Shown piece after piece: positions 12,391 through 28,801 of a stretch of DNA of 64,000 nt. The notes under the pieces were generated by a model that was not told the DNA's origin, did not search any database, and was given only the letters and a program-made list of their open reading frames with translations. The stretch is from Promethearchaeia archaeon (GTDB taxonomy: Archaea > Asgardarchaeota > Lokiarchaeia > Sigyniarchaeales > SOKP01). The translations under genes and the position numbers were made by a program. The stretch spans positions 32,001 through 96,000 of the forward strand of contig JAHQWK010000012.1 in the NCBI GenBank assembly GCA_029856145.1, read 5' to 3'. How positions within the stretch are numbered: the first letter of the stretch is position 1; each line of letters starts with the position of its first letter.

Positions 12391-13038
12391 TTGATTATGA
12401 GTGAATTTTATCATCTTAAACATTTGCAAAAAGACCAAATTGAAGCAGCAAGTAGAGTGGCCGCTCGTGCATTCTACAATGATCCTTTATTCGTTTATTG
12501 TTTTCCAGATCCTATTGAAAGAAAGATTAAAAGTGTTACTCACTGCGAATTGCTGATTTTAGCTGGAATTTTATCCGGTGAAGTATATATTACATCAAGT
12601 GATATTGAAGGTGTTGCTGTGTGGCATCCTCATGGAATAAAAGATCAGAAAATGGGGAAACAATCCAAGGAGATCATTAGAAGATTGCGAAAAGTCAAAA
12701 GAGAGAATCTTTCAGATCCTTTATTTATAGAGAGAATGGGTATCTTTAATGAAATTGTTAATTCATTTCAAAATGAACATGTGAATTTTTCTCATTGGTA
12801 TTTAAGCATTATTGGCCTAGATCCTATACATCAAGGAAAGGGCTATGCCAGTAAGTTATTAAAAATGAAACTTGCTGAAATTGATAAGCAAAACTTACCT
12901 TGTTATTTACATACTGAAAATGGAAAAAATATTCAAATCTATGAGCATTTTGGATTTGAACTTGTTGGAAAAACAAAGGTTCCTAATTCTAATTTTTATT
13001 TTCATGGAATGCTTCGAAATAAGAAAAAAGTTGATTAG
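12391..13038 (+). CDS. GNAT family N-acetyltransferase
   Basis: WYLSIIGLDPIHQGKGYA acetyl-CoA motif, and YEHFGF. Confidence 0.9.
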   Translation: MIMSEFYHLKHLQKDQIEAASRVAARAFYNDPLFVYCFPDPIERKIKSVTHCELLILAGILSGEVYITSSDIEGVAVWHPHGIKDQKMGKQSKEIIRRLRKVKRENLSDPLFIERMGIFNEIVNSFQNEHVNFSHWYLSIIGLDPIHQGKGYASKLLKMKLAEIDKQNLPCYLHTENGKNIQIYEHFGFELVGKTKVPNSNFYFHGMLRNKKKVD

Positions 13039-14765
13039 AAGTTATGTTCATCTAATCTTTTCCAAAAATTTTCTAATTCTGCTTTTTCAAAAGTAAACTT
13101 CAAACCTATTGGTTCAGACTGTTCTTCTCTGAAAAATTCAGGCACTTTATTCATTTCTTGTGTAATCCCTGCCTTGTTATTAAACTTAATTTCAGTTTTT
13201 ATAATTTCTATTCCAATTTTGATTACATCATCTCTAGTTAAAGTTAAATTATACATGGCATTAATTGCATTCGCTATTATTTCCATGTTTTCATAGCTTG
13301 GGCCAATAAAATAACAACAGCCCATAGAATCCAAAATTGCTGTATAAATCTGTAGTTCGAAAGATAAATCAAGTTTATTCTCATTTTCAGTTAATTCTCC
13401 ATAGTTTTTATGTTGACTTGGAACTCTTCCGGCAATAGCTGCTCCAGCAGTATGGTCTGCTCCTTGAGGGGAGGTTACGTAAGTAACTCCCATTGCTTTA
13501 AAGACTCTACTATCATAAGCGGAAATTCCTTGCCCTTTAACTTGAGGAATTCGCTTTGCATTAAGTTTTTCTCCAATAATTTTAACACCATTGCTATATA
13601 ATTGCCCTTCTTCCGTATTATTTCTTATTTCATCATCCAAGATTTTAAAAACTTTTTCGGCATTTCCCCACTCTACTTTTCCACAATCCATAGCAACACC
13701 AACTGTTCCACCAAACTCAATTGTATCAAGCCCTAAATCATCACAAAGATGATCAATTTTAGCTAAACTATCTAAATCGTCAATCATCAAATTACTGCCA
13801 TTTAAAGCCATTGTTTCATATTCTAGACTTGATGTAAGATGATTCCCTTGCTCATCAACAACTAGATTTGAACATTTTATTACACATGTGGGAGAACAAG
13901 CTAATCTCTTTTTACCTCCTCTCGCAACTACAAGTTCATGAAGTCTTTCTCCTGAAATATTATCAATTTTATCATAAGATCCCATTTGAAAATTTTTTGT
14001 AGGTATACCTCCGTATCCACTCATACCCTTCATCATTAAAGAGGTACCAAATGTAGAAAACACTTCTTTCGAAGAAGCCAATTGTTTAGCAAATGGTTTA
14101 GATCCTTCTCTGAATTTTTTAATATCATGCATTTTTACTTTGGAAGTTTTTGAGGGAATTATCACTATTGCTTTAATTCTTTTAGAACCCATTACAGCTC
14201 CTAATCCACCCCTAGCAGCATGTCTACTTGGGTATCCTTCCAAATCATTTGCCGCTACTGTAGCTGATTTCATCAAATGTTCACCCGCAGGGCCAATAGA
14301 GTAAATACCAATATTTTCTCCATATTTTTGTTTTAATTTCGAATATAGTTCATAATTACCTAAACCTTTATATTCTTCTGCTGACAGAATCTTAATACCA
14401 TACTCATCAATTAAGATAAGTTTTAATAGTAGTGATATATCTTCTAGCACTATTGCTCTAATACCATGTCTTGCTAACATCATGGCAGGTCTTCCCCCTA
14501 CATTGGCTTCTTTTATCCCATTAGTTAAAGGACTTTTCGCTCCTACTGATGTACGTGCAGAACAAGGAAATGGACTGCCAGCAAGAATTCCATTGGCAAG
14601 AATTAATTTATTTTCGTTTCCTAAAGGATTACATAATGGTGGTACTTCATCATGAATAATCTGAGAACTCAACCCTCTAGCACCACGTAATAAATATTTT
14701 GAATTTGGAGTAATTTCTTCAAATTGAATATCTTCATTCTCAATGTTTATTCTTACTATTTTCAT
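13035..14765 (-). CDS. aor: Aldehyde:ferredoxin oxidoreductase (tungsten-pterin family)
   Basis: KSPLT, IGPAGE, ARGGLGAVMGSK, CSPTCVIKC, LEYET, CDDLGLDTIE. Confidence 0.92.
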   Translation of the reverse strand: MKIVRINIENEDIQFEEITPNSKYLLRGARGLSSQIIHDEVPPLCNPLGNENKLILANGILAGSPFPCSARTSVGAKSPLTNGIKEANVGGRPAMMLARHGIRAIVLEDISLLLKLILIDEYGIKILSAEEYKGLGNYELYSKLKQKYGENIGIYSIGPAGEHLMKSATVAANDLEGYPSRHAARGGLGAVMGSKRIKAIVIIPSKTSKVKMHDIKKFREGSKPFAKQLASSKEVFSTFGTSLMMKGMSGYGGIPTKNFQMGSYDKIDNISGERLHELVVARGGKKRLACSPTCVIKCSNLVVDEQGNHLTSSLEYETMALNGSNLMIDDLDSLAKIDHLCDDLGLDTIEFGGTVGVAMDCGKVEWGNAEKVFKILDDEIRNNTEEGQLYSNGVKIIGEKLNAKRIPQVKGQGISAYDSRVFKAMGVTYVTSPQGADHTAGAAIAGRVPSQHKNYGELTENENKLDLSFELQIYTAILDSMGCCYFIGPSYENMEIIANAINAMYNLTLTRDDVIKIGIEIIKTEIKFNNKAGITQEMNKVPEFFREEQSEPIGLKFTFEKAELENFWKRLDEHNF

Positions 14766-14934: not shown

Positions 14935-16068
14935 CTATTTGATTCTTCTTATTTTTCCATAATCTTTGTCTTCTTTCCTTTGTTCTTGAAGAAAGGCTTT
15001 TCTCTTAGAAATAGCTTGGTACAATTCTGGAAGATTTTCAGGAGGTATAGATTCTGTTGATTTTTTTACTAACTGTCGCGCTTTATTAGGACAAGTTGGG
15101 ACACAAACTCCACATCCAATACAATAGCCTAGATTAACTTCACAAATCCCATTCTCATTAATTTTATTCGCGTCCATATGGCATCTAGTAATACATTCGT
15201 TGCATCCTGAACATTTCTTCTCATCAATTTCTACGAAATAATTTGAATTAATATATTGAGCGGGATTGACATATTTTTTAAGATTATTGAGGACCACACA
15301 AGAACATCCACAACAGGAACATATCATAAATGGTTTTTGGGCATTACTAGGGCAAATTACCATTCCCTTGTCTTGTGTCATTCGCAATATTTCAAGTGCT
15401 TCTTCTTTTGTAATCTCACGACCTTGTTCAAGAAAAATCCGTGGATTAACACCAATTGAAATACAAGTTTCTATTGGATGATCACAACCTTGTCCTTGAA
15501 CTTCTTTTGATTGTCTACATATGCAAGGGCATAAGTATAATGTTTTATCAACCTTATCTATTATAGTTTTAATCTCATCAAAATTAGAAACATTATATTC
15601 CAGACTGATACTTTTCTCTATGGGAATGGTTCTCATTTGTATAATACCATTTTCTAACATTGCAGATACAAACCCTTCATCCATGTATTGGTCAAGATCT
15701 TCAGAAAAATCTTTAGTTAGTTTATCTATTTGATAATCATAAAATCCTACCATTAAAAAAGCGATAGAATAATAATTTGTTCCATCTCTTCTTCGAATCC
15801 AATTAATTGATCCTTTTTTCGCTAATGTTAGAAGTGCTTCCGAGAATTGCTCTATTGTCCAACCTTTCTTTTTGAAAGGTCTAAACATTGCCCTTGGTTC
15901 TTGAGGTATAATCTTTAGATTTAACGCAATTTCAGCTTCTTGAGGAGTAAATAGATGTTTTAAAATCCTAATTTCTACACCAGATTTCGTCTCTGGATAA
16001 TCAATTGGAAGAGAATCTAAATATTTCTGAAGCTTTCGATAAATTAATTCTTCACTATTGGAACTCAT
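14935..16068 (-). CDS. 4Fe-4S dicluster domain protein with N-terminal HTH-like region
   Basis: CICR, ICSCCGCSC and two C-terminal CxxCxxCxxxC ferredoxin motifs. Confidence 0.88.
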   Translation of the reverse strand: MSSNSEELIYRKLQKYLDSLPIDYPETKSGVEIRILKHLFTPQEAEIALNLKIIPQEPRAMFRPFKKKGWTIEQFSEALLTLAKKGSINWIRRRDGTNYYSIAFLMVGFYDYQIDKLTKDFSEDLDQYMDEGFVSAMLENGIIQMRTIPIEKSISLEYNVSNFDEIKTIIDKVDKTLYLCPCICRQSKEVQGQGCDHPIETCISIGVNPRIFLEQGREITKEEALEILRMTQDKGMVICPSNAQKPFMICSCCGCSCVVLNNLKKYVNPAQYINSNYFVEIDEKKCSGCNECITRCHMDANKINENGICEVNLGYCIGCGVCVPTCPNKARQLVKKSTESIPPENLPELYQAISKRKAFLQEQRKEDKDYGKIRRIK

Positions 16069-16388: not shown

Positions 16389-17315
16389 ATGAATGAACAG
16401 TATCGTACTTTTTTGAAAAATAACAAAATCGATGAAAATTCAATCCCTCAAACTAAATGTTGTAAAAATCCATTTATCGAATCTAGGGATGGCAATAAAG
16501 TTTGTTTAAATTGTGGGGTAATCTTTGAGAGAACCTACGTTGGAAATGAACGAAGAGCCTACACAATTGAAGAAATACAGAGCCGTCGCAGAACAGAACC
16601 GCGCTGGAGGGATTTTGGACCCAGAACTATGCTCCCGACGACTAAAACAGATAGTAAAGGCAAAAGTATTGGCGCTAAGGAGCAAGCTCTTTTCTCTCGT
16701 CTCTCGAAAATTCAGAATTCGCTAATTTCAAGTATTGAAAGAAACTTTTGGGAAGCAAAGCCAAAATTAAAAATGTTAACATCGAAACTCAATGTACCCG
16801 AATATATAGCAGAAACAGCTTGGAAGATATATAGCTTGGTTGCAAAAAAGAAATTAACAATGGGGAGATCAATAAATGGATTTATTTCAGGATCGCTATA
16901 TGCTGCTATTCGCGTTCATGACTTTCCACGGCTTTTAGATGAAATATGTGAAGCATCATTAACTCCAAGGAGGACAGTTCATAGAAGTCTAGCGATGATT
17001 ATTCGTGAGGTATTACCTGAGCTTAAATTAAGATATCAACCAATTACTGCTGAATGTTTAGTATTCCGTTTTGGTAATGAATTAGATTTACCGATATCAA
17101 TACAAAAAAACGCAATAAATATGTTAAAAGATGCATCAAGAAATGGTTTAAAACGAACTGGGAAAGATCCAAAGGGTTTAGCTGCTGCTTGCATATATAT
17201 CGCAGCTAAGAATGGTTTAATCCGTAAAACACAATCACTCGTAGCTAACGTAGCAAAGATCACAGAGGTTACATTGCGATCTCGTGCTAAACAAATAAAG
17301 AGTAAATTATCTTAA
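16389..17315 (+). CDS. tfb: Transcription initiation factor IIB (TFB)
   Basis: Zinc ribbon (CC...VCLNCG), ERRAY, two cyclin repeats (MGRS, GKDPKGLAAACIY, TEVTLRSR). Confidence 0.95.
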   Translation: MNEQYRTFLKNNKIDENSIPQTKCCKNPFIESRDGNKVCLNCGVIFERTYVGNERRAYTIEEIQSRRRTEPRWRDFGPRTMLPTTKTDSKGKSIGAKEQALFSRLSKIQNSLISSIERNFWEAKPKLKMLTSKLNVPEYIAETAWKIYSLVAKKKLTMGRSINGFISGSLYAAIRVHDFPRLLDEICEASLTPRRTVHRSLAMIIREVLPELKLRYQPITAECLVFRFGNELDLPISIQKNAINMLKDASRNGLKRTGKDPKGLAAACIYIAAKNGLIRKTQSLVANVAKITEVTLRSRAKQIKSKLS

Positions 17316-18049: not shown

Positions 18050-19015
18050 TTGAAAAAGAAAAAAAAATCTGATTCGGAAATCTCAAATTGTTCTCATAAA
18101 AATATGAAACAAGACAGTGGATTTATTGTTTGCCAAGATTGTGGACTGATTATGGAAGATAATGTAGCTTTTGAAGATACCGTATCAACCAGTGATTTTT
18201 TTACAGATTCCCAGAGAGATTACGAAAGAAGAATCAGAGTAAGTGATTCAAAAGCACTCCAAGATCCTGTCATTAAAGAGAAATATGACCGAATTAAAAC
18301 TCTTGAAAAATGGTTCAGAGACTATGAATCTGATTTTACTGAACAAAAAAAAACAATTGAATTACTAAAAAGCCATGGAATTGGATTAAACATTGATAAC
18401 GTTAAAAATAAGGAAATTAAGGATCGATATTTGAAGTATAATAAATATCACCGCCATAATTATCAAAATATGGTGATAATTTTTCTAGCAATTGTATGGA
18501 TGCAAATAAAGGACACTACAAATATTAGGATTGAGCAATTCATTAATGTTTCTAGGGAATTAGGTCATAAAATAAATAAAAAGATGTTAAATAATGCTAT
18601 GTTAAAAATCAAACGAACTGAAAAGATATTTAAAGAGAAGAAGAGTACTAAAGAACTAGAGAATGAGATTAAAAATAAAATCAAAATTGTCTTTCAGAAA
18701 GACTTAAATCATATTCCGTACGAGAAAGTCCAAGAGTTTTTTTTCAATAAAGGTGAATATGAAAAAACTAAAATCGATATGCAGTTATTAGCTGACAAAA
18801 TATTGAATAAAATCTCTTATCGCCAGATTCAGAGTCTTAATTACAAAGCTTTTACTGCTGGATTAATTTATTATATAGGGCAAACTCTTGAAAACAGAAA
18901 AATTTTCACTCAAAGTCTAGTAGAAAGTACTAGTAAATTTTCAAGTACGACAATTCGGAAAAGATATCACGTTCTAAAAGATCTCTTAGGAGATCCTCAA
19001 GCACTTAACATCTGA
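18050..19015 (+). CDS. Divergent TFIIB-like protein
   Basis: CSH...VCQDCG zinc ribbon and a C-terminal cyclin-like repeat (AGLIYY...TQSLV...SSTTIRKRY). Confidence 0.75.
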   Translation: MKKKKKSDSEISNCSHKNMKQDSGFIVCQDCGLIMEDNVAFEDTVSTSDFFTDSQRDYERRIRVSDSKALQDPVIKEKYDRIKTLEKWFRDYESDFTEQKKTIELLKSHGIGLNIDNVKNKEIKDRYLKYNKYHRHNYQNMVIIFLAIVWMQIKDTTNIRIEQFINVSRELGHKINKKMLNNAMLKIKRTEKIFKEKKSTKELENEIKNKIKIVFQKDLNHIPYEKVQEFFFNKGEYEKTKIDMQLLADKILNKISYRQIQSLNYKAFTAGLIYYIGQTLENRKIFTQSLVESTSKFSSTTIRKRYHVLKDLLGDPQALNI

Positions 19016-19099: not shown

Positions 19100-21979
19100 A
19101 TGATTAAGATGTCATTATCTGAGAAACAAAATGAAGTCTATTATTATAATCAACCAATTGAGGATTTAGTAAAAAATTTTAATACTAATATTGAGAAAGG
19201 ATTAAATTCCTCCGAATTACATGAAAGATATCAAAAATCAGGGTATAACGAATTACCAAAAATTAAAAAATCTATTTGGAAAATTTATCTTGCTCCAATC
19301 TTCAATTTTTTAATTGTTATTCTCATTATTGCTGGGATTATAATTGTAATATTAGGGTCTCCAAGTGAAACAATAATAACTTTCACAGTAGTGATAATTA
19401 ACTCAATTACAGCTATAGTTCAACAATTTCGTGCACAAAAAGCTCTAGAATCCTTAAGAGAAATCTCTGCCTTAAAAGCAACCGTTTTAAGAGACGGAAA
19501 GCAGATCGAAATTAGAACAAAAGAATTGGTTCCAGGAGATATCGTAATGTTAAGCCAAGGAGATAAAATACCAGCAGATAGTAGAATAATTGAATTTATG
19601 GATTTTAGTGTTGATGAAGCTCCTCTCACAGGAGAGAGCGAACCTGTAGAGAAAAATAGTTATATTATAGAGAAAAAAGATATACACCTCCAAAATCAAT
19701 CAAATATGATATTTATGGGAACATATGTACGAACAGGAAGGGCTAAAGGATTAATTACAGGAACAGGCGTAAAAACGGAAATTGGAAAAATTTCGCAGAC
19801 ATTAAATGAAATGGGAAGTATTGAAGATATTCCATTAACCAGAAAGTTAAATCGTTTAGGGTATATTCTCGGAACGATTGTGATAATAAATCTTATTATA
19901 TTATTAACTTCTAAACTAATGATTCTAGGTATTGAAGGGAATTTGATCCAAAATGAAATAATTGAAGCAATTACAGATTCAATAATTAGGTCAATGAATA
20001 TAGTACCCATAAATTTACCTTTACTTTCAACTCTAGTTCTTATTACAGGCGTTTTAATCATGGCTCAAAGTGGAGTAATTATTAAAAATTTGTCCGCTAT
20101 CGAATCTCTTGGACGAGTATCGGTTATTTGTTCTGATAAAACAGGAACTATCACCAAAAATGAAATGACAGTGGAAAAGTTCTGGATAAATGATCAAGAA
20201 TATGAAGTTTCAGGATCTGGATATGATGCTACTGATGGTTTAATCTTTCAGAACCACAAACCAATTAATTTAACTGAAAACGAGACATTCATGAAGTTTC
20301 TTAACTCTATAGTAATAAATAATAATGCTCGTTTAGAATTTGAAGATATTAAAGTTAGATTAAAGAATATTAAAGAAAAGGCGGTAAGAAGGGCGCTAGG
20401 GTCCCCCACAGAAGCGGCATTATTAGTATTAACTGAGAAAGCTGGTTTACATCCTTATGATATTAAAAATAATTATATAATTACTAAAGAATTTTCATTT
20501 AGTTCTGAAGATAAAAGAATGACAACTATATGTAAGCCTTTGGGAGATAAGGATGAAATTTTTGCCTTTTCAAAAGGCGCACCTGAAAGAGTGTTAGAAG
20601 TATCTTCACAAATTGAAATTAACGGAATTTTGAAGGATCTTAACCAGATATATAAAGACTCAATTCTAGATAAAATCGATGAGCGAGCAAATCAAGGCTT
20701 TAGAACTTTAGCAATTGCATATAAAAAATTAAATAAGATTGATGATCTAAAAAGAGAAGAAGTTGAAAATAATTTAGTTTTCTTAGGTTTTGTTTCTATT
20801 ATGGATCCTCCACGACCAGGAGTTAAAAAATCTGTTGAAGAGTGCCAAAATGGAGGTGTAAAAGTAATAATGGTCACAGGAGACCATCCAGCAACAGCAA
20901 AAACTATTGCATCACAGATGGGGATTTTTAGAGAAGGAGATTTGGTCGCAACAGGCAATCAAATAGAAAATATTCCTCTCTCAGAATTCAATAAAACATC
21001 AGTATTTGCTCGAGTTGAACCTAATGATAAACAAGTAATAGTAGAGACTTATCAAAAACAAAAATTAATATGTGCTATGACAGGGGATGGCATCAATGAT
21101 GCTCCTGCTTTAAAACTAGCAAATGCAGGAGTTGCGATGGGGATTACTGGTACCGATCTTGCTAAAGAAGCCTCTGATATGGTAATTACAGATGATAATT
21201 TTTCTTCAATCAAACAAGGTGTTAAAACAGGAAGAGGAATCTTTGCTAAAATCAGGACAATTATTTTTTTCTTTATTTGCACTAATATTGTAGAAGGGAT
21301 AATATTTTTTACTTTCGAGCTTATAGCACCTTTCATAGGATTCGAACTTTTTGCATCAAACTGGCAACATATTTATATCTTTGGTATAGTCCATTCTCTT
21401 CCAGCTTTAGCTTTAGTAATTGATACACGTCCGAAGGATATAATGATTGAACCACCTAGAGACGAAGAAGAATTATTAAATAAGAATATGTGGATTATGC
21501 TATTAATTCAAGCTTTTCTAATTGGTTTAGGATTAATTCTTTCTTTGCAACTGACTTTAAATGGATTTATTCCATTAAATGAATGGAATTTAAACCCAAA
21601 TATTAGTTATATCGTCTCAGGACAAGAATTGGCTCAAAAAGCAAGAACAATGTTTATTACTACAATATTCATTGTTGAAACCAATTTCATATGGACCTTT
21701 AGAAGACCAAATAAATCTCTTTATAGAAGTATCAAAGAAGAATTAAGCCTTTCTTTATTGGTTATATGTTTATTTACGTTAGCCATACATATATTGTACA
21801 TTTGTTTTTCCCATATCGTTAATTTTTATGTGAATGATGTATTTGGGTTGAATCTACAGATAAATTTCATGTTTCTTAGTGGTACAGATTGGTTATTTTG
21901 TATTTTGCTAGCATTACCAGGAATAGTTGGTATTGAAATTTTTAAATACTTTGCTCGAGGTAGAAATATTCATTTTTAA
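19100..21979 (+). CDS. P-type ATPase, P2A-like scaffold with atypical transport site
   Basis: TGES, CSDKTGT, KGAPE, DPPR, MVTGD, TGDGINDAPALK. M4 reads PINLP instead of PEGLP. Confidence 0.95.
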   Translation: MIKMSLSEKQNEVYYYNQPIEDLVKNFNTNIEKGLNSSELHERYQKSGYNELPKIKKSIWKIYLAPIFNFLIVILIIAGIIIVILGSPSETIITFTVVIINSITAIVQQFRAQKALESLREISALKATVLRDGKQIEIRTKELVPGDIVMLSQGDKIPADSRIIEFMDFSVDEAPLTGESEPVEKNSYIIEKKDIHLQNQSNMIFMGTYVRTGRAKGLITGTGVKTEIGKISQTLNEMGSIEDIPLTRKLNRLGYILGTIVIINLIILLTSKLMILGIEGNLIQNEIIEAITDSIIRSMNIVPINLPLLSTLVLITGVLIMAQSGVIIKNLSAIESLGRVSVICSDKTGTITKNEMTVEKFWINDQEYEVSGSGYDATDGLIFQNHKPINLTENETFMKFLNSIVINNNARLEFEDIKVRLKNIKEKAVRRALGSPTEAALLVLTEKAGLHPYDIKNNYIITKEFSFSSEDKRMTTICKPLGDKDEIFAFSKGAPERVLEVSSQIEINGILKDLNQIYKDSILDKIDERANQGFRTLAIAYKKLNKIDDLKREEVENNLVFLGFVSIMDPPRPGVKKSVEECQNGGVKVIMVTGDHPATAKTIASQMGIFREGDLVATGNQIENIPLSEFNKTSVFARVEPNDKQVIVETYQKQKLICAMTGDGINDAPALKLANAGVAMGITGTDLAKEASDMVITDDNFSSIKQGVKTGRGIFAKIRTIIFFFICTNIVEGIIFFTFELIAPFIGFELFASNWQHIYIFGIVHSLPALALVIDTRPKDIMIEPPRDEEELLNKNMWIMLLIQAFLIGLGLILSLQLTLNGFIPLNEWNLNPNISYIVSGQELAQKARTMFITTIFIVETNFIWTFRRPNKSLYRSIKEELSLSLLVICLFTLAIHILYICFSHIVNFYVNDVFGLNLQINFMFLSGTDWLFCILLALPGIVGIEIFKYFARGRNIHF

Positions 21980-22102
21980 ATTTCTCTTAGATAGAAATAT
22001 TTAATTTTTTAAATCATGATTATTATAGGTTATTTATTATATTGATAAGAATTTTGAATTCACTTATCATTAATTATTCTTAAAAATTGTGGAAGAACCA
22101 CT

Positions 22103-24991
22103 ATGGAATCTACAGAAAAGAATTACTATAATCTTCAATTAGAGCAAATTTATGAAAAATTTCAAGCTAACCCTGATAAAGGTTTAACTGAAAAAGAAGC
22201 TAATAAGAGATTAGAAAAATATGGTTTTAATGAAATCCCCAAAGTATCAAAAGGTTTTATTAAAATCTATTTAGCGCCACTGTTCAACTGGTTAATAGTT
22301 ATTTATCTAATTGGATCTTTGATTTTATTTTTAGCAGCGATCTTTGGAGGAGAAGGAAATCTATTCTTTGTTGGCTTAACTTTAGGAGTTGTATTACTGA
22401 ATTGTATAGTTGCAATTATTCAACAATATAGAGCAACAAAAAAGTTAAAGGCTTTACGTGAGTTAACTGCTCCTACTTCAACTATAATTAGAGATGACCA
22501 AAAGAAAGAAATTCCGACTAAAGAAATAGTTGTAGGAGATTTATTAGAACTAAATCAAGGTGATAAAATACCAGCAGATGCTAGAATTATTGAATCGTAT
22601 AACATGGTGGTAAATGAAGCCTCATTAACTGGAGAATCTGAGCCTGTAAGAAAATCAGAATCGGGAAAACCATTACATAAAAAAGAGATTTCAATAGGAG
22701 AACGCAGTAATATGGTATTTTATGGTACTTACATTAGTACAGGAAATGGTAAATCAATTGTTGTAAAAACTGGGGGAGATACTGAAATTGGTAAAATTTC
22801 TCATGGGTTAGAAGAAGCTGGTACAAGCGAGATTCCAATACGACAGAAAATGAACCATTTTGGAAAATGGCTGGGTTTAATAATTTTTATCTTTTGGTTT
22901 ATTACATTGATAATTCTTTGGGTAGCAAGAGGGTATGTTGATATAGTAGGAAGTATGAATTCTGCTCTCGATTTGATGCCCCTTAATATTCCGCTGCTTT
23001 CAACTATTGTTTTGATAACAGGAGTCTTAGCTATGGCACATCATGGTGTTATTATAAGAAACCTCGCTTCAGTTGATAGTTTAGGCCGTGTAAGTGTAGT
23101 TTGTTCGGATAAAACTGGCACTTTAACTAAAAACCAGATGTCTATACAGCATATTTGGACAAATGGGTCAATATTTAGAGCTACTGGTAGTGGGTATGCT
23201 CCAGATGGAGATATTATTTTAATGGATGATGTAAAAAATCCTCTTTATGTTAAACACATGGATGAATACCCTTATCTGAAATTATTGTTAACAGCAGGCT
23301 TTTTAAATAACAATTCAGCATTGATTAAAAATGAAATTGAAATTTCGGGTAGAATAATTCCCAAATGGGATGTCGTTGGTTCTCCTACAGAAGGAGCACT
23401 AATGGTTTTATTTCAGAAAGGTATGGGTGATTATCTTCTCGATGATTTTGAAGCGATTACTGAATATCCTTTCGATTCTTCAGTAAAGAGAATGACTAAA
23501 CTTTATAAACGAGAACAGTCATATTATTCATTTACAAAAGGAGCAAGTGAAGTTCTAATCCCACTTTGTACAAAGATCTTATATAATGATAGTGAGATCG
23601 AATTCAATGAACAAATTAAAAACAAAGTAATGGAAATTGTAAATCTTTATGCAAATCAAGGTTATAGAATATTAAGTCTGTGCTATAAAGTAATGGATAT
23701 AATTCCACCTGAAGGAGATGAAGGAAGAAAAGTAAGTGAATCAAATATGGTTTACATTGGTTTTGTAACAATTCTGGATCCTCCAAGAGAAGGAGTTAAA
23801 GAATCTGTAAATCAATGTCATGAAGCGGGTGTGGATGTTATAATGATCACAGGAGACTCTCCTGCTACTGCGCGCGCGATTGCTTCACAAATTGCTATTG
23901 CAACAGATGAGAATAAAACTGCTGTAGAAGGTAAAATGGTTAAGGATATTGAGTCATATGAAGAATTCAATCCAATTAGAGTATTTGCAAGAGTTTCTCC
24001 TGAACATAAAGAGGATATTGTTGAAAAATATCAAGAACAAAAAAAAGTAGTCGCGATGACTGGAGATGGTGTAAATGATGCTTTGGCACTAAATATGGCT
24101 GATGTAGGAATCGCAATGGGTATTACGGGAACGGATGTAGCTAAAGAAGCTTCCGATATGGTCATTTCAGATGATTCTTTTAATTCAATTGTTACAGGAA
24201 TCCATCAAGGAAGAGGAATATTCGCAAGAATTCGTGCTGTTGTCTTCTTTTATATTTGTATTAACATTTTTGAGGGAATAGTACAATTTATTTTATTTGT
24301 AATTTTGGAATTGCCATATTTCTTAAATGAAGCCTTTTATTTCCAATGGATATTTCTCACCATAACAGTTCATACATTTCCAGGATTAATCCTTACTTTT
24401 GATACTATTTCTAAAGATGTTATGAAAGAAAAACCACGGGATTCTGAAGAGATTCTTTCAAAAAATACATTTGGATTATTATTTATATTTGGTATTCTAC
24501 TTGCAATAAGTATGGTTATTGTTTATTCTATAACTATGAGCGGAATATATCCAGTTGTTCCTGGAAATTATCCCCAAGATTATCTTTATTTCATTAAAGA
24601 CCCTGAATTAATACCCCCCGATATTTTTGGGTTACCAATAGAAGAAATTAGAAAAATCGGAAAAACATTAACCATGCTGATGGTAACGTTATTTTTCTGT
24701 GAGACTTTTCTTGTAATTCAGATTAGACGGCCGAATAAATCCTTAATTAAGAGTCTAATTGAAGATCGAAATAAATTTATGTTTTTTCTAATTGGCTTTT
24801 TATTTTTTGTGTTGATCGCTTTAATATATATTCCCGGTGTTCAAGTTACATTAGCATCATGGGGTATTAATTTTATGTTCATGTTTTTGACAGGTTTAGA
24901 TTGGTTAGTGTGCTTCTCAATTTCATTAATCTGTATTGTTTCCTTTGAGATTGTCAAATTTGGCGCCCGTAAAATGGATATAAAGTTCTAA
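22103..24991 (+). CDS. P-type ATPase, P2A-like scaffold with atypical transport site (tandem paralogue)
   Basis: TGES, CSDKTGTLT, KGASE, DPPR, MITGD, TGDGVND. M4 reads PLNIP. Confidence 0.95.
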   Translation: MESTEKNYYNLQLEQIYEKFQANPDKGLTEKEANKRLEKYGFNEIPKVSKGFIKIYLAPLFNWLIVIYLIGSLILFLAAIFGGEGNLFFVGLTLGVVLLNCIVAIIQQYRATKKLKALRELTAPTSTIIRDDQKKEIPTKEIVVGDLLELNQGDKIPADARIIESYNMVVNEASLTGESEPVRKSESGKPLHKKEISIGERSNMVFYGTYISTGNGKSIVVKTGGDTEIGKISHGLEEAGTSEIPIRQKMNHFGKWLGLIIFIFWFITLIILWVARGYVDIVGSMNSALDLMPLNIPLLSTIVLITGVLAMAHHGVIIRNLASVDSLGRVSVVCSDKTGTLTKNQMSIQHIWTNGSIFRATGSGYAPDGDIILMDDVKNPLYVKHMDEYPYLKLLLTAGFLNNNSALIKNEIEISGRIIPKWDVVGSPTEGALMVLFQKGMGDYLLDDFEAITEYPFDSSVKRMTKLYKREQSYYSFTKGASEVLIPLCTKILYNDSEIEFNEQIKNKVMEIVNLYANQGYRILSLCYKVMDIIPPEGDEGRKVSESNMVYIGFVTILDPPREGVKESVNQCHEAGVDVIMITGDSPATARAIASQIAIATDENKTAVEGKMVKDIESYEEFNPIRVFARVSPEHKEDIVEKYQEQKKVVAMTGDGVNDALALNMADVGIAMGITGTDVAKEASDMVISDDSFNSIVTGIHQGRGIFARIRAVVFFYICINIFEGIVQFILFVILELPYFLNEAFYFQWIFLTITVHTFPGLILTFDTISKDVMKEKPRDSEEILSKNTFGLLFIFGILLAISMVIVYSITMSGIYPVVPGNYPQDYLYFIKDPELIPPDIFGLPIEEIRKIGKTLTMLMVTLFFCETFLVIQIRRPNKSLIKSLIEDRNKFMFFLIGFLFFVLIALIYIPGVQVTLASWGINFMFMFLTGLDWLVCFSISLICIVSFEIVKFGARKMDIKF

Positions 24992-25636: not shown

Positions 25637-26719
25637 TTATCTTTCCAATTCTTTAAAGTAGGGGATAATTTCATCCCGAAAGATTTCATAAACCCGATTA
25701 ACGTCAGGACCTCGGTTCATAAGAATCATTGAAGTCGCGCCTGCTTCTTTAAATTTTTCTATACTTGAAATAACATCATCTGTAGAACCTAAACAGTTAG
25801 TATCTTGAAGGATTGTTTCAGGAAGGTTATCTACACATGATAATTGCTCATTAATATCCTTTACTTGCATGTCAAAATTATGAATTGTATAATCCGTTGG
25901 AAGACATAAATCGGGGTATATTTGATTAGTTTTTGTTGGATTCAGAACATATGAAACTCTAAAGAATTCACAGCGTTTAACAGCATTTTCCGGAGTTTTA
26001 TTATCTATAGCCACAAAGCAATTATAAGTATAATCAATTTCTTCTGGATTTCGACCTATTTTTTTAGCTGCATCAACAATTTCTTTTTTATTTTCTTTAA
26101 ATGTTTTAGGTGACTCTACAAAGGGATACCATCCATCTCCTAATTCACCAGTCATTTGACGAGTTTTAGGACCGTTTGCTGCAATATATATAGGAGGAGT
26201 ATTTTGAATAGGTTTAACTTGGATATAAGCGCGGCGTATATTACCCCAGAAATCACTTTTTCTACTTACTTTGCGTTTTGTCCAAAAATCTCTTAATAAC
26301 TCAATATATTCTCTTAATTTCGTTATAGATTTATCACGATTCAATCCATACATATCAACATTCATTTTTTCACCTGCACCGAGACCTATCATAGCTCTTC
26401 CATTTGAAATTTGGTCGAGAGTAGCAACTTTTTGAGCCATTAGTGCAGGATGAAACCGATGAGGATCAGAAACACCAGTACATAATTTAGCTTTAGTAGT
26501 GATCATTGCGATTGAGGTGAGAAACATAAAAGCATCAAAACAAGTACCTGGTCCTGGAGGTAGCATTACTGTATGATCTGCATAAAATACATATTCAAAA
26601 CCGCATTGCTCGGCTTTTTTAGCTCCTTCATACATATAATCAAGCCGAGGGGTGGGAACTGGGATTGAAAATCCAAACTTCATAATAATTAAAATTGTTT
26701 GAATCTTAAAAACTTCCAT
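25637..26719 (-). CDS. LLM-class (luciferase-like, probably F420-dependent) oxidoreductase
   Basis: ADH, HPALMAQKVATLDQISNGR, GLGAGE, ELGDGW. The true start may be the downstream Met (MKFGFS). Confidence 0.9.
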   Translation of the reverse strand: MEVFKIQTILIIMKFGFSIPVPTPRLDYMYEGAKKAEQCGFEYVFYADHTVMLPPGPGTCFDAFMFLTSIAMITTKAKLCTGVSDPHRFHPALMAQKVATLDQISNGRAMIGLGAGEKMNVDMYGLNRDKSITKLREYIELLRDFWTKRKVSRKSDFWGNIRRAYIQVKPIQNTPPIYIAANGPKTRQMTGELGDGWYPFVESPKTFKENKKEIVDAAKKIGRNPEEIDYTYNCFVAIDNKTPENAVKRCEFFRVSYVLNPTKTNQIYPDLCLPTDYTIHNFDMQVKDINEQLSCVDNLPETILQDTNCLGSTDDVISSIEKFKEAGATSMILMNRGPDVNRVYEIFRDEIIPYFKELER

Positions 26720-26803: not shown

Positions 26804-27949
26804 TTGGAAAGTGATATTATGGATATTAGTGATATAAAAATTGGTACTGAAGGAAGTTTCATTGGCCCTCTTGAAAAAGGAATTGCCCAAGTAAAAAGGA
26901 TAGAAGAGAACGGGTATGATTCGGTATGGTTTGCGGACCATTTGATGGGATGGACACCAGATAGTATATGGACACCTGATATTCTTAGAGCTGCTGAATT
27001 TGTAGATAGCCCACATATATTTCATGAAGTATATTCAGTCATGGCTGCTGCTGCTTGGAATACAAATAAAATTAAACTAGGTACAAGCGTGACTGAAACC
27101 TTTCGAAGACATCCTGCTGTTTTAGCTCAAACATTACTAACCCAAGATCACATCTCAAAGGGAAGAGTAATATTAGGTATCGGAGCTGGAGAAGGTGAAA
27201 ATGTAGTACCTTATGGTATTAAATGGGAGAATCCTGTAGGTAGATTAGACGAATCTATTCAAATAATTAAGTTATTGTGGAAGAGCGATAAGAAAGTAAA
27301 CTTTGATGGAAAATTTTGGAAATTGAAAAATGCTGTTCTTAACCTGAAACCATTCGAAAAAGGTAAATATCCTCCTATTTGGATAGCTGCACATGGACCC
27401 AAAATGCTTGATTTAACCGGAAGATTAGGGGATGGTTGGTTACCTGCATATTCTGATCCAGAATCATATAAATTTAGACTAAATCATATCAAAAATTCAG
27501 CAAAAAAAGCAAACAGAGATCCAAATGAAATTGTCCCAGCACTATTTAGTTTCCTACTAATCGATGAAGAACATAATGTCTGTGATGATATGCTTGAAAA
27601 CCCCGTAATTAAAAATCAACTATTAACTATGCCTCCTTCAATGTATAAAAAGTATGGAGCAATTCATCCTTTTGGAGAAGATTTTTATGGACTACTTGAA
27701 TATATCCCGACAGAATATGATAGAAAAACAGTATTAGAAGCAATAGATAAAATCCCCGCAAAAATGTGTGATGATAATACTTTACATGGGACACCTGATG
27801 AAGTTATCAGTAAAATTGAAGAATATGCTAAAGTGGGTCTAAAACATATTGTTTTTTATAATACAACTTATTTAGCGGATATTACTAAAATTAAAAGTTC
27901 ATTTGGCTTATTGAAAAAAGTCCTGCAATATTTTCACGATGAGAAGTAG
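26804..27949 (+). CDS. LLM-class (luciferase-like, probably F420-dependent) oxidoreductase
   Basis: WFADH, RHPAVLAQ, GIGAGE, GDGWLP. The start is probably the ATG near 26819. Confidence 0.9.
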   Translation: MESDIMDISDIKIGTEGSFIGPLEKGIAQVKRIEENGYDSVWFADHLMGWTPDSIWTPDILRAAEFVDSPHIFHEVYSVMAAAAWNTNKIKLGTSVTETFRRHPAVLAQTLLTQDHISKGRVILGIGAGEGENVVPYGIKWENPVGRLDESIQIIKLLWKSDKKVNFDGKFWKLKNAVLNLKPFEKGKYPPIWIAAHGPKMLDLTGRLGDGWLPAYSDPESYKFRLNHIKNSAKKANRDPNEIVPALFSFLLIDEEHNVCDDMLENPVIKNQLLTMPPSMYKKYGAIHPFGEDFYGLLEYIPTEYDRKTVLEAIDKIPAKMCDDNTLHGTPDEVISKIEEYAKVGLKHIVFYNTTYLADITKIKSSFGLLKKVLQYFHDEK

Positions 27950-27955
27950 AAGAGG

Positions 27956-28801
27956 TTGATAGACTTGTATATTGATTGTCATGCTCACATATTTTTTAGC
28001 CCGATCCCTAAAGAAGCTATTGATAAAGATATCAAGGGTGAAATACCGACACCTACCATAGACTTTATAAATAGAATGATATCTAATGCAAAAAAAAAAG
28101 GAGTAAGCCATATTGTTGGAGTTATTAGTAATCCAGACGAGTTCCCAAGATATAAAGAACAATTGAAGCTTGAAAATATTATAAATATTATTGGTATCTC
28201 AAGAAATAAATCGCTAGAAGACCAAGCATATATGATTTCGTTATTAAGAAAGGAAATTGAGAGAAAAATACCTCATGGGATCGGAGAGATTGGATTGGAA
28301 TATCCCTATGATTTTGATAAGTTAAAGGAACATGAAGAAAAAGAAATTAAGAAAAGACAGCAGGAATTATTTAGAAAACAAATTCAAATTGCTAAAGAAA
28401 TTGCGATTCCTATTGTCGTTCATGCTGGATATGGTACAGATAAAGATATTGTGAAAATGTTAAAACAAGAAAAAGCAGATGATGTAGGGGGCCAAATTCA
28501 TGGCTATATGTCTAATAAAGAGTTAGTTAGTGAATTACTTGATCTAGGCTTTTACTTTTCGTTTGGATATTTCCATCCGAGAGAAGAGGAATTACGAACG
28601 ATTATTGAGATAACTCCAATAGAAAAGATCCTTATTGAAACAGATTCTCCATATCATCTAATAGAATCTCCTAAAAGATTTATTCTTCCAGAGGATGTGG
28701 TGCCAATTACAAAGGAAATTGCTAAATTAAAAGAAGTTAATCCTAAAACTTTTGCTAACCAGGTAATGAAGAATAGTAAGGAACTTTTTAATTTCAATTA
28801 A
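27956..28801 (+). CDS. TatD family hydrolase
   Basis: IDCHAH, GIGEIGLE, VVH, ETDSPY. Confidence 0.9.
   Translation: MIDLYIDCHAHIFFSPIPKEAIDKDIKGEIPTPTIDFINRMISNAKKKGVSHIVGVISNPDEFPRYKEQLKLENIINIIGISRNKSLEDQAYMISLLRKEIERKIPHGIGEIGLEYPYDFDKLKEHEEKEIKKRQQELFRKQIQIAKEIAIPIVVHAGYGTDKDIVKMLKQEKADDVGGQIHGYMSNKELVSELLDLGFYFSFGYFHPREEELRTIIEITPIEKILIETDSPYHLIESPKRFILPEDVVPITKEIAKLKEVNPKTFANQVMKNSKELFNFN

What the first reader, a model, noticed from the sequence alone, without database searches (positions are those of the whole stretch)
19100..24991. Tandem P-type ATPases whose transport site has lost the cation ligands and resembles a lipid-flippase M4
Seen: both pumps keep the catalytic core (TGES, DKTGT, DPPR, TGD, GDGxND). 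The M4 PEGLP motif is replaced by N-I-V-P303-I-N-L-P (20006-20020) and D-L-M-P293-L-N-I-P (22979-22993). In M6 the SERCA-type QLLWVNLVTDGLP becomes QHIYIFGIVHSLP and QWIFLTITVHTFP, so Asn796 is lost, Thr799 becomes Val and Asp800 becomes His in both. M5 NxxE and the M8 Glu are retained. Established: M4 Glu309 and M6 Asn796/Asp800 form Ca2+ site II, and P4 lipid flippases, regarded as eukaryotic, have NxxPISL with Ile replacing that Glu. Inference: these are not Ca2+ pumps but an uncharacterised subfamily with a different substrate (lipid, organic ion or H+-coupled transport), possibly intermediate toward or convergent with P4/P5 ATPases. The shared changes in two divergent paralogues argue for selection rather than decay. 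Caveat: the A-domain is TGES, not the P4 DGET, and no CDC50-like gene is evident.
Basis: partly seen in the sequence, partly recalled or inferred. Interest (0 to 1): 0.8.

Follow-up and report, generated by a model that had tools for sequence, protein, structure and literature searches.

The report
Asgard P-type pumps, histidine-rebuilt site
Two neighbouring, intact ATP-driven membrane pumps of an Asgard archaeon belong to an apparently undescribed, so far Asgard-only sister branch of the calcium-pump class. Their cargo site has been rebuilt around an asparagine and a histidine, so they probably move a small ion other than calcium, and they are not relatives of eukaryotic lipid flippases.

Summary
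Genes at 19100-21979 and 22103-24991 encode 959- and 962-aa P-type ATPases (42% identical) with a full catalytic core. M4 reads PINLP/PLNIP instead of PEGLP, and His replaces SERCA Asp800 in M6. The M5 Asn/Glu and the M8 Glu are kept. These residues are invariant in 121 + 120 orthologues.

The two genes are old paralogues. They belong to a monophyletic clade (32 clusters at 50% identity, support 1.0) that is sister to the PEGLP-type P2A-like pumps. About 90 of 151 sampled Asgard genomes carry the clade. None of 603 genomes from three other archaeal phyla do.

The flippase reading is not supported. The A-domain motif is TGES. The P4 and P5 models score no higher than they do on ordinary PEGLP pumps. 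Each membrane half matches no P4 or P5 chain in the PDB, and the 50 listed fold matches are all P2 pumps. No partner gene is conserved.

The genome also has a canonical PEGL/TDG pump, so the "Ca2+-ATPase" annotation of this pair is probably wrong.

Best reading (confidence 0.6): single-site pumps for a small cation other than Ca2+ (H+, Na+/K+ or a transition metal). The substrate is untested. No description was found in the literature searched. Earlier runs of this scan found the same pair in other Asgard genomes.

The parts
19100..21979 (+). Gene 1: 959-aa P-type ATPase of the PxN/His clade (PINLP subclade)
   Evidence: ORF. Pfam E1-E2_ATPase, Cation_ATPase_N, Cation_ATPase_C, Hydrolase. AF2 model pLDDT 84.9, pTM 0.78. 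120 orthologue clusters at 68% identity or more, all named ones Asgard.
22103..24991 (+). Gene 2: 962-aa paralogue, 42% identical to gene 1 (D-L-M-P-[IL]-N-I-P subclade)
   Evidence: It falls in a different subclade from gene 1 in the tree. 120 orthologue clusters at 70% identity or more.
19628..19639 (+). A-domain TGES of gene 1 (gene 2: 22628-22639)
   Evidence: G, E and S are invariant in orthologues; the first residue is T, or S in 10 of 121.
20006..20020 (+). M4 P303-I-N305-L-P307 of gene 1, replacing PEGLP
   Evidence: Pro303 and Asn305 are 121/121 conserved; position 304 is I, F or V. DSSP shows no helix at residues 300-305 of the model.
20135..20149 (+). DKTGT phosphorylation motif of gene 1 (Asp346); gene 2: 23108-23122 (Asp336)
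21278..21298 (+). M5 C-T-N729-I-V-E732-G of gene 1 (SERCA Asn768/Glu771 equivalents retained)
21383..21403 (+). M6 G-I-V-H765-S-L-P of gene 1: His at SERCA Asp800, Val at Thr799, Phe761 at Asn796
   Evidence: Alignments to LMCA1 and SERCA2. His is 121/121 conserved.
21671..21685 (+). M8 I-V-E860-T-N of gene 1 (Glu908 equivalent retained), followed by the clade-specific RRPN at 21701-21712
22979..22993 (+). M4 P293-L-N295-I-P297 of gene 2, preceded by an Asp at -3 that is invariant in this subclade
24257..24277 (+). M5 C-I-N-I-F-E-G of gene 2 (Asn/Glu retained)
24362..24382 (+). M6 I-T-V-H757-T-F-P of gene 2 (His at Asp800; Ser/Thr at the Asn796 position across its orthologues)
24695..24709 (+). 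M8 F-C-E867-T-F of gene 2 (Glu908 equivalent retained)
21980..22102 (+). 123-bp AT-rich spacer between the two genes
   Evidence: The same gene order with a short spacer is seen in 13 relatives of the same GTDB family and in NCBI record RDOA01000007.1. Four relatives carry a VTT/DedA gene in this spacer.

Best explanation
The two genes encode active P-type (E1/E2) pumps of a distinct, so far Asgard-only clade. In a tree rooted on archaeal P3A pumps, this clade is sister to the PEGLP-type P2A-like pumps. The chemistry is standard: ATP phosphorylates Asp346 (gene 1) or Asp336 (gene 2) in DKTGT, and the TGES loop dephosphorylates it. The cargo site is different. The SERCA 'site II' ligands are replaced by hydrophobic or small residues (Glu309 to Ile/Leu; Asn796 to Phe or Ser/Thr). 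The remaining pocket is formed by a new M4 Asn, the retained M5 Asn and Glu, the retained M8 Glu, and a His in place of the M6 Asp. I infer a single-site pump for a small cation other than Ca2+. The His would act either as a ligand or proton carrier, or as a built-in counter-ion. The candidates cannot be separated here: H+ (P3A-like logic, with His in place of Asp), an alkali cation, or a transition metal (a His/Glu/Asn site). The two paralogues differ at two site positions (Asn against Asp at M4 -3; Phe against Ser/Thr at the Asn796 position), so they probably differ in substrate, stoichiometry or affinity. What is shown: the anatomy, the conservation, the clade and its distribution. What is inferred: the substrate class and the role of His.
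For: The catalytic motifs are intact. The Pfam domain architecture is that of cation-transporting P-type ATPases. The best NCBIfam matches are PMR1/SERCA type, at about 60% of the cut-off. The AF2 model is confident, and the 50 listed Foldseek matches are all P2A or P2C pumps. Each membrane half alone matches P2 and P3 pumps in the PDB, with no P4 or P5 chain listed. The site residues are 100% conserved in 241 orthologues and at least 90% conserved across 47 diverse clade members. The clade is monophyletic with support 1.0 and is sister to 109 PEGLP-type representatives when rooted on archaeal P3A. The same genome has a separate pump with the full Ca2+ ligand set, PEGLI ... NIATDGIPA, so the pair is not needed for Ca2+. 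The Palmgren 2023 review (PMC10654040) gives precedents: a His serves as internal counter-ion in P1B-4 pumps, P6 pumps lack the M6 Asp, and more prokaryotic families are expected.
Against: There is no biochemical data for any member. AF2 coordinates could not be read, so the geometry of the Asn/Asn/Glu/His/Glu cluster is inferred from homology only. Loss of the M4 Glu and the M6 Asp is also what a non-ionic substrate would allow. In four related genomes a VTT/DedA gene (a family that includes lipid scramblases) lies between the two pump genes. No regulator or partner gene points to any particular ion.
Confidence: 0.6

Rival explanations
1. They are Ca2+ (or Ca2+/Mg2+) pumps after all, as annotated, using the retained site-I residues (M5 Asn/Glu, M8 Glu) with His substituting for Asp800.
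For: The nearest characterised relatives are Ca2+ pumps. Three site-I ligand positions are retained and invariant. Public annotation says 'Ca2+-transporting ATPase', and the Asgard transportome paper counts Asgard P-type pumps as putative Ca2+-ATPases (PMC7997004).
Against: Glu309 and Asp800 are the established core Ca2+ ligands, and both are replaced in every one of 241 orthologues. Acidic residues on M2 (SERCA Glu109/Glu113 positions) are also replaced, by Gln, Gln or Thr. All Ca2+-pump equivalog models fall far below their cut-offs. The genome keeps a separate pump with the complete ligand set.
Confidence: 0.08
2. They move a large or non-metal substrate (a lipid head group, a polyamine or another organic cation), convergent with P4/P5 ATPases.
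For: There is a hydrophobic residue where P2 pumps have the gating Glu, the M6 Asp is lost, and acidic M2 residues are lost. A VTT/DedA-family gene lies between the two pump genes in 4 of 17 adjacent pairs in the same GTDB family.
Against: The A-domain motif is TGES, not DGET. There is no M5 Lys. The P4 and P5 models score no better than on ordinary PEGLP pumps. No P4 or P5 chain appears among the PDB matches listed for either membrane half or among the 50 listed fold matches. The pocket keeps two Glu, two Asn and a His, all invariant, which is typical of an ion site. The VTT gene is absent from this window, from L013 and from 20 other Asgard ATPase loci, 15 of them from this clade. No CDC50-like partner was found.
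Confidence: 0.12
3. They are non-transporting or decaying paralogues (a regulatory ATPase or a pseudo-pump).
For: Canonical ligands are lost.
Against: All catalytic motifs are intact, and both proteins are very highly conserved: 68-91% identity over the 120 listed orthologue clusters of each, with the new site residues invariant. The pair is widely retained.
Confidence: 0.03

Closest known systems
P2A Ca2+(/Mn2+)-ATPases: Listeria LMCA1 (PDB 9euq, 6zhf), SPCA1/PMR1 (8iwp, 7yag), SERCA1/2
   Same: They share the 10-helix architecture, the Cation_ATPase_N and Cation_ATPase_C domains, and TGES, DKTGT, DPPR and TGDGxND. They are the best sequence, profile and fold matches. The M5 Asn/Glu and M8 Glu are shared with SERCA.
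   Different: M4 is PxN[LI]P instead of PEGLP. M6 has His instead of Asp800, and the Asn796 and Thr799 positions are replaced. M2 reads QQ instead of QE. Scores are about 60% of the family cut-offs. The clade is a separate branch, sister to the sampled PEGLP pumps and not nested within them.
P3A H+-ATPases (plant AHA2, fungal PMA1, archaeal homologues such as L113)
   Same: Both have a hydrophobic residue after the M4 Pro and rely on one protonatable M6 residue paired with an M2 Asn (motifs recalled from memory; the Asp684/Arg655 roles are from PMC10654040). The M3-M4 piece matches PMA1 at E 4.5e-5.
   Different: The M6 residue is His, not Asp. There is no M5 Arg. The M5 Glu and M8 Glu are retained. 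TIGR01647 scores 352 bits against a cut-off of 615.5. Archaeal P3A sequences fall outside the clade.
P4 lipid flippases (ATP8A, Drs2p, Neo1p)
   Same: Ile follows the M4 Pro in most members, and neither family has the M4 Glu or the M6 Asp.
   Different: The A-domain motif is TGES, not DGET. Asn, not Ser, follows P-I. There is no M5 Lys, no PhoLip_ATPase domain and no CDC50 partner. TIGR01652 scores 86-125 bits against a cut-off of 431, the same as ordinary PEGLP pumps. P4 pumps are regarded as unique to eukaryotes (PMC10654040).
Pumps with non-acidic residues at the core site: P1B-4 (His as internal counter-ion) and P6 CtpE (M6 Asp replaced by Ile)
   Same: They are precedents for a His, or for loss of the M6 Asp, at the canonical site of a cation pump (PMC10654040).
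   Different: P1B-4 pumps have an 8-helix heavy-metal architecture. P6 pumps keep PEGL in M4. Neither has the PxN motif.

Membership tests
P-type ATPase superfamily (HAD-IC, TIGR01494) | DKTGT phosphorylation motif, TGES-type A-domain loop, DPPR, TGD, GDGxND; score above the family cut-off | tested here: met
   All motifs are present. TIGR01494 scores 281 and 299 bits against a cut-off of 62.3.
P2A Ca2+-ATPase (SERCA/PMR1/LMCA1 type) | M4 PEGLP with the Ca2+-gating Glu (SERCA Glu309) | tested here: not met
   The motif is PINLP or PLNIP. Position 309 is I/L/F/V in 241 of 241 orthologues.
P2A Ca2+-ATPase (SERCA/PMR1/LMCA1 type) | M6 Asn796, Thr799 and Asp800 ligands | tested here: not met
   Gene 1 has Phe/Val/His at these positions. 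Gene 2 has Thr/Val/His; the MAFFT columns for its orthologues give S/T, L/V and His, with one-column uncertainty before the His. His is invariant.
P2A Ca2+-ATPase (SERCA/PMR1/LMCA1 type) | Score above the NCBIfam equivalog cut-offs (TIGR01522: 798.3; TIGR01116: 703.4) | tested here: not met
   The window genes score 483/464 and 476/428 bits. PEGLP controls score 688-823 on TIGR01522 and 700-732 on TIGR01116.
P2A Ca2+-ATPase (SERCA/PMR1/LMCA1 type) | Branches within the PEGLP-type P2A radiation | tested here: not met
   The clade is sister to all 109 sampled PEGLP-type representatives, with clade support 1.0, in a FastTree LG+G tree rooted on two archaeal P3A sequences. No eukaryotic P2B-D, P4 or P5 sequences were in the tree.
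P4 lipid flippase | A-domain DGET motif | tested here: not met
   The motif is TGES; G, E and S are invariant.
P4 lipid flippase | M4 PISL and the P4 profile or domains (TIGR01652, PhoLip_ATPase_N/C) | tested here: not met
   The motif is P-[ILVFW]-N-[LIF]. TIGR01652 scores 86-125 bits against a cut-off of 431, the same as PEGLP controls at 86-112. There is no PhoLip_ATPase hit.
P4 lipid flippase | CDC50-type beta subunit (P4A/P4C) | tested here: not met
   No such gene was found next to the pair or next to 15 other clade members, and no neighbour is conserved across families. A genome-wide CDC50 search was not run. P4B pumps lack the subunit, so this feature is weak.
P5 ATPase | M4 PP(E/A)LP and the TIGR01657 cut-off of 618 | tested here: not met
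   M4 has a single Pro before x-N. Scores are 226-253 bits, lower than PEGLP controls at 243-278.
P3A H+-ATPase | M6 Asp as proton acceptor, M5 Arg, TIGR01647 cut-off of 615.5 | tested here: not met
   M6 has His, M5 has Asn/Glu and no Arg, and the score is 352 bits.
P6 (CtpE-type) | PEGL retained in M4, with the M6 Asp replaced by a hydrophobic residue (PMC10654040) | tested here: not met
   PEGL is absent and M6 has His.

The most novel reading that the evidence does not exclude
The PxN/His clade is an Asgard-specific P-type family whose cargo is not an inorganic cation. It might be a polar lipid head group or an organic cation, arrived at independently of eukaryotic P4/P5 pumps. The VTT/DedA gene that sits between the two pump genes in some genomes would then hint at a role in membrane-lipid handling in the archaeal lineage closest to eukaryotes.
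Probability: 0.12. Interest if true: 0.85.

Novelty: new variant of a known kind. Interest (0 to 1): 0.6.

Why it matters
P-type ATPases are sorted into families P1-P6, and a 2023 review expected further prokaryotic families (PMC10654040). This is a large, strongly conserved clade, present in about 60% of sampled Asgard genomes and often as a conserved tandem pair. Its site chemistry (M4 Pro-x-Asn, M6 His) matches no characterised family.

The clade is annotated throughout public databases as 'Ca2+-transporting ATPase'. Asgard P-type pumps have been cited as support for Ca2+ signalling in the archaeal relatives of eukaryotes (PMC7997004). For this clade that inference is probably wrong, although separate canonical PEGLP pumps do exist in these genomes.

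Finding the substrate would show which ion, or other cargo, these energy-limited archaea spend ATP on. It would also add a new specificity solution to a very well studied transporter scaffold.

Tried and rejected
1. The search for related loci on genome contigs chose generic motifs (MTGDGVND and similar). Among the 80 loci kept, only L013 was identified as a clade member (65% identity, later confirmed); the other matches, at 30-37% identity, look like ordinary P2 pumps (nine were examined or used in later calls; none belonged to this clade).
2. The bit score against the clade profile first looked usable as a membership test. However, PEGLP pumps of other archaea also score 760-865 bits. I calibrated by fetching sequences: 15 of 15 hits above 1148 bits are PxN, and 5 of 5 hits at 875-909 bits are PE[GA]LP. 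I then used E <= 1e-285 as the threshold.
Gene context therefore came from the fetch from genomes plus my own ORF clustering.
4. I looked for conserved neighbours or an operon partner. Only local synteny within close relatives was found. The neighbours are a subtilase, ketopantoate hydroxymethyltransferase, a molybdopterin oxidoreductase, TFB paralogues and a GNAT.
5. Six literature searches (a seventh failed on a term-length error) found no description of the clade. The TCDB 'FUPA' survey (PMID 20962537) is not held, so I could not check whether a FUPA family has this motif.
Profile scores with PEGLP controls were used instead.
7. The AF2 coordinates are not exposed, so no groove or pocket geometry was measured.
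8. The ESM Atlas search gave only the protein's own Promethearchaeota-rich cluster and ordinary P2 clusters.
Full report
**What is there.** The window is low-GC (about 30%) and comes from an Asgard archaeon. The closest database proteins are named Promethearchaeota, Hermod-, Loki-, Thor-, Hod-, Odin- and Helarchaeota. Two ORFs on the + strand, 19100-21979 (959 aa) and 22103-24991 (962 aa), lie 123 bp apart. They are 42% identical over their whole length. Both carry Pfam E1-E2_ATPase, Cation_ATPase_N, Cation_ATPase (N domain), Hydrolase and Cation_ATPase_C. HMMER alignments to Listeria LMCA1 and to SERCA2 confirm the mapping: His lies under Asp800, Val under Thr799 and Phe/Thr under Asn796, while the M5 Asn-x-x-Glu is retained. 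A MAFFT alignment with PEGLP pumps places the M8 Glu under the Glu/Gln of the P2A M8 motif.

**Not chance, not decay.** I aligned 121 orthologues of gene 1 and 120 of gene 2, taken as clusters at 90% identity and 68-100% identical to the query. The following are conserved in 241 of 241: the M4 Pro and the Asn two residues later, the M5 Asn and Glu, the M6 His, the M8 Glu, and M2 Asn101/Gln108/Gln109 (SERCA has Gln108-Glu109). The G, E and S of TGES are also invariant. The paralogues differ consistently at two site positions. Three residues before the M4 Pro, gene 1 has Asn (113 of 121) and gene 2 has Asp (120 of 120). At the Asn796 position, gene 1 has Phe and gene 2 has Ser/Thr.

**A distinct clade.** A HMMER scan of 1.84 billion cluster representatives returned P-[IVLFW]-N-[LIF]-x proteins (plus a few variants such as PIMIP, PVSIP and PWSFP) as the best matches down to about 557 bits. 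A few more are interleaved with the first PEGLP pumps, which start at about 525 bits. These proteins share further signatures: M2 QQxRAQ, ESLGR before DKTGT, M6 H-[ST]-x-P and post-M8 RR[PI]N.

In a FastTree LG+G tree of 144 sequences rooted on two archaeal P3A pumps (L113 and L114, both above the TIGR01647 cut-off), the 32 full-length representatives form one clade with support 1.0. That clade is sister to all 109 other non-root sequences, nearly all PEGLP-type, including this genome's own canonical pump and five PE[GA]LP-type pumps from other Asgard genomes. Genes 1 and 2 sit in different subclades, so the duplication is old. The caveats are a single fast method, only the nearest 100 or so PEGLP clusters sampled, and no eukaryotic P2B-D, P4 or P5 sequences.

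**Distribution.** With the clade profile, 90 of 151 sampled genomes of the Asgard phylum have a hit at E = 0 (above 1000 bits). I calibrated the score by fetching sequences: 15 of 15 hits above 1148 bits are PxN-type, and 5 of 5 hits at 875-909 bits are PE[GA]LP-type. Several small-genome Asgard families have only the PEGLP type. At the same threshold nothing was found in 251, 201 and 151 genomes of three other archaeal phyla. These are the phyla of genomes whose record titles name Bathyarchaeia, Methanosarcinales and Methanobacterium. That means not found in those searched, not proven absent. One 2,992-bp contig encoding a 76%-identical protein is labelled only 'bacterium'.

**The tandem pair.** The pair, in the same order, is adjacent in 17 of 26 sampled genomes of the window's GTDB family (counting the window's own genome). 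It is also adjacent in NCBI record RDOA01000007.1, where the gene 1 orthologue is only 65% identical.

**Is it P4- or P5-like?** No.
- The NCBIfam ranking is PMR1 > SERCA > P2D > P2B > P2C > P3A > P3B > P5 > P1B > P4.
- As a control I scored four more clade members and five ordinary PEGLP pumps. The P4 model gives 86-125 bits on the clade and 86-112 on the controls. The P5 model gives 226-253 against 243-278. The clade is therefore divergent from all families rather than shifted toward P4 or P5.
- The M5-M10 half alone matches 49 PDB sequences at E <= 1, all of them P2 pumps.
- The M3-M4 piece alone matches SPCA1, MgtA, LMCA1, PMA1, SERCA and Na,K/H,K pumps, with no P4 or P5 chain among the 60 listed of 71 matches.
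- The AF2 model (pLDDT 84.9, pTM 0.78) shows no helix at residues 300-305 of M4, and its 50 listed Foldseek matches are all SERCA, SPCA, LMCA1 and Na,K/H,K pumps.
- The A-domain motif is TGES, and no PhoLip_ATPase domain is found.

The only shared feature is a hydrophobic residue after the M4 Pro. That residue varies within the clade (I/L/V/F/W). The invariant residue is the next one, Asn, where P4 pumps have Ser.

**Context.** Upstream lie a TFB gene, an unannotated 189-aa ORF on the opposite strand and a TFB-like zinc-ribbon gene. Downstream lie a GNAT acetyltransferase and two luciferase-like oxidoreductases. Across 15 clade loci from other Asgard families, no neighbour is conserved beyond close relatives.

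In four genomes of the window's family (G008, G141, G057, G121), a 268-272-aa VTT/DedA-domain gene lies between the two pump genes. It scores 33-34 bits against a Pfam cut-off of 33.9, and the copies are 68-73% identical to one another. It is absent from this window, from L013 and from 20 other loci. The window's genome has only distant VTT homologues elsewhere (35% identity).

The genome has two more P-type ATPases. One is a CPC-type P1B pump. The other is a canonical P2 pump with PEGLI, M5 N-F-D-E, M6 N-I-A-T-D-G-I-P and an M8 Glu, which is the complete Ca2+ ligand set.

**How it most likely works.** What is shown: both proteins have everything needed for the phosphorylation cycle, and a strictly conserved polar cluster at the canonical site (M4 Asn; M5 Asn and Glu; M6 His; M8 Glu; plus M4 Asp in gene 2). 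What is inferred: site II of the Ca2+ pump is filled in, and the remainder forms a single site for a small cation other than Ca2+. The His could be a ligand, which would favour a transition metal. It could be the proton carrier, by analogy with the Asp-Asn pair of P3A pumps. It could be a built-in counter-ion, as reported for a His in P1B-4 pumps (PMC10654040). Loss of acidic M2 residues also argues against a divalent alkaline-earth cargo. I put 0.6 on 'small inorganic cation other than Ca2+', 0.12 on a large or organic substrate, 0.08 on Ca2+ as annotated and 0.03 on a non-transporting protein. The rest is open.

**Novelty.** Searches of the held literature found no description of this clade. 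The Asgard transportome paper treats Asgard P-type pumps as orthologues of a putative Ca2+-ATPase (PMC7997004). The 2023 Palmgren review lists families P1-P6, states that P4 pumps are unique to eukaryotes, and expects more prokaryotic families.

Earlier notes of this scan describe the same tandem pair in other Asgard genomes and reached the same reading. I treated them as leads, and everything above was tested here. I class the finding as a new variant of a known kind: an undescribed P2-like subfamily with an unprecedented site.

Noticed in passing
G000:C24:37670-40555 (- strand; outside the window): The same genome carries a third P2-type pump with the complete canonical Ca2+ ligand set (PEGLI in M4, N-F-D-E in M5, N-I-A-T-D-G-I-P in M6, Glu in M8). 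It groups with PEGLP pumps in the tree. A 717-aa CPC-type P1B pump lies on C3.
   Followed up: partly
L117 225-1031 (+), L118 321-1139 (-), L119, L120 (genomes G008, G141, G057, G121): A 268-272-aa VTT/DedA-domain gene (the family includes lipid scramblases) sits between the two pump genes in 4 of 17 adjacent pairs of the window's GTDB family. The copies are 68-73% identical to one another. The gene is absent from this window and from 21 other loci.
   Followed up: yes
window 16389-17315 (+) and 18050-19015 (+): Two TFB-related genes lie just upstream of the pumps. One is a full TFIIB-repeat protein. The other is a 321-aa protein with only a weak TFIIB zinc-ribbon match and no recognised cyclin repeats.
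   Followed up: no
window 25637-26719 (-) and 26804-27949 (+): A divergently oriented pair of luciferase-like (probably F420-dependent) oxidoreductase genes, followed by a TatD-family hydrolase gene at 27956-28801.
   Followed up: no
window 13035-14765 (-), 14935-16068 (-), 43248-46160 (-): An aldehyde:ferredoxin oxidoreductase gene lies next to a 4Fe-4S dicluster protein gene. Further on there is a 970-aa pyruvate phosphate dikinase / PEP synthase-type gene.
   Followed up: no
proteins P0153, P0164, P0183, P0212: These are 1550-1700-aa proteins whose C-terminal half is a P2-type pump. A first DKTGT-like motif is preceded by CPA/SPA-type M4 sequences, so they look like fusions of two P-type ATPases.
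   Followed up: no
protein P0370: A 917-aa partial protein, 76% identical to gene 2, is labelled only '[bacterium]' in NCBI. It sits on a 2,992-bp contig, so this is probably an unclassified or mis-binned Asgard fragment.
   Followed up: no
L100 5420-6016 (+), L104 6329-6913 (+), L107 11469-12041 (+): A roughly 195-aa molybdopterin-binding oxidoreductase-domain gene lies next to the clade's pump gene in three genomes of two Asgard families. It is the only neighbour shared across families, and it was not seen in the other loci.
   Followed up: partly
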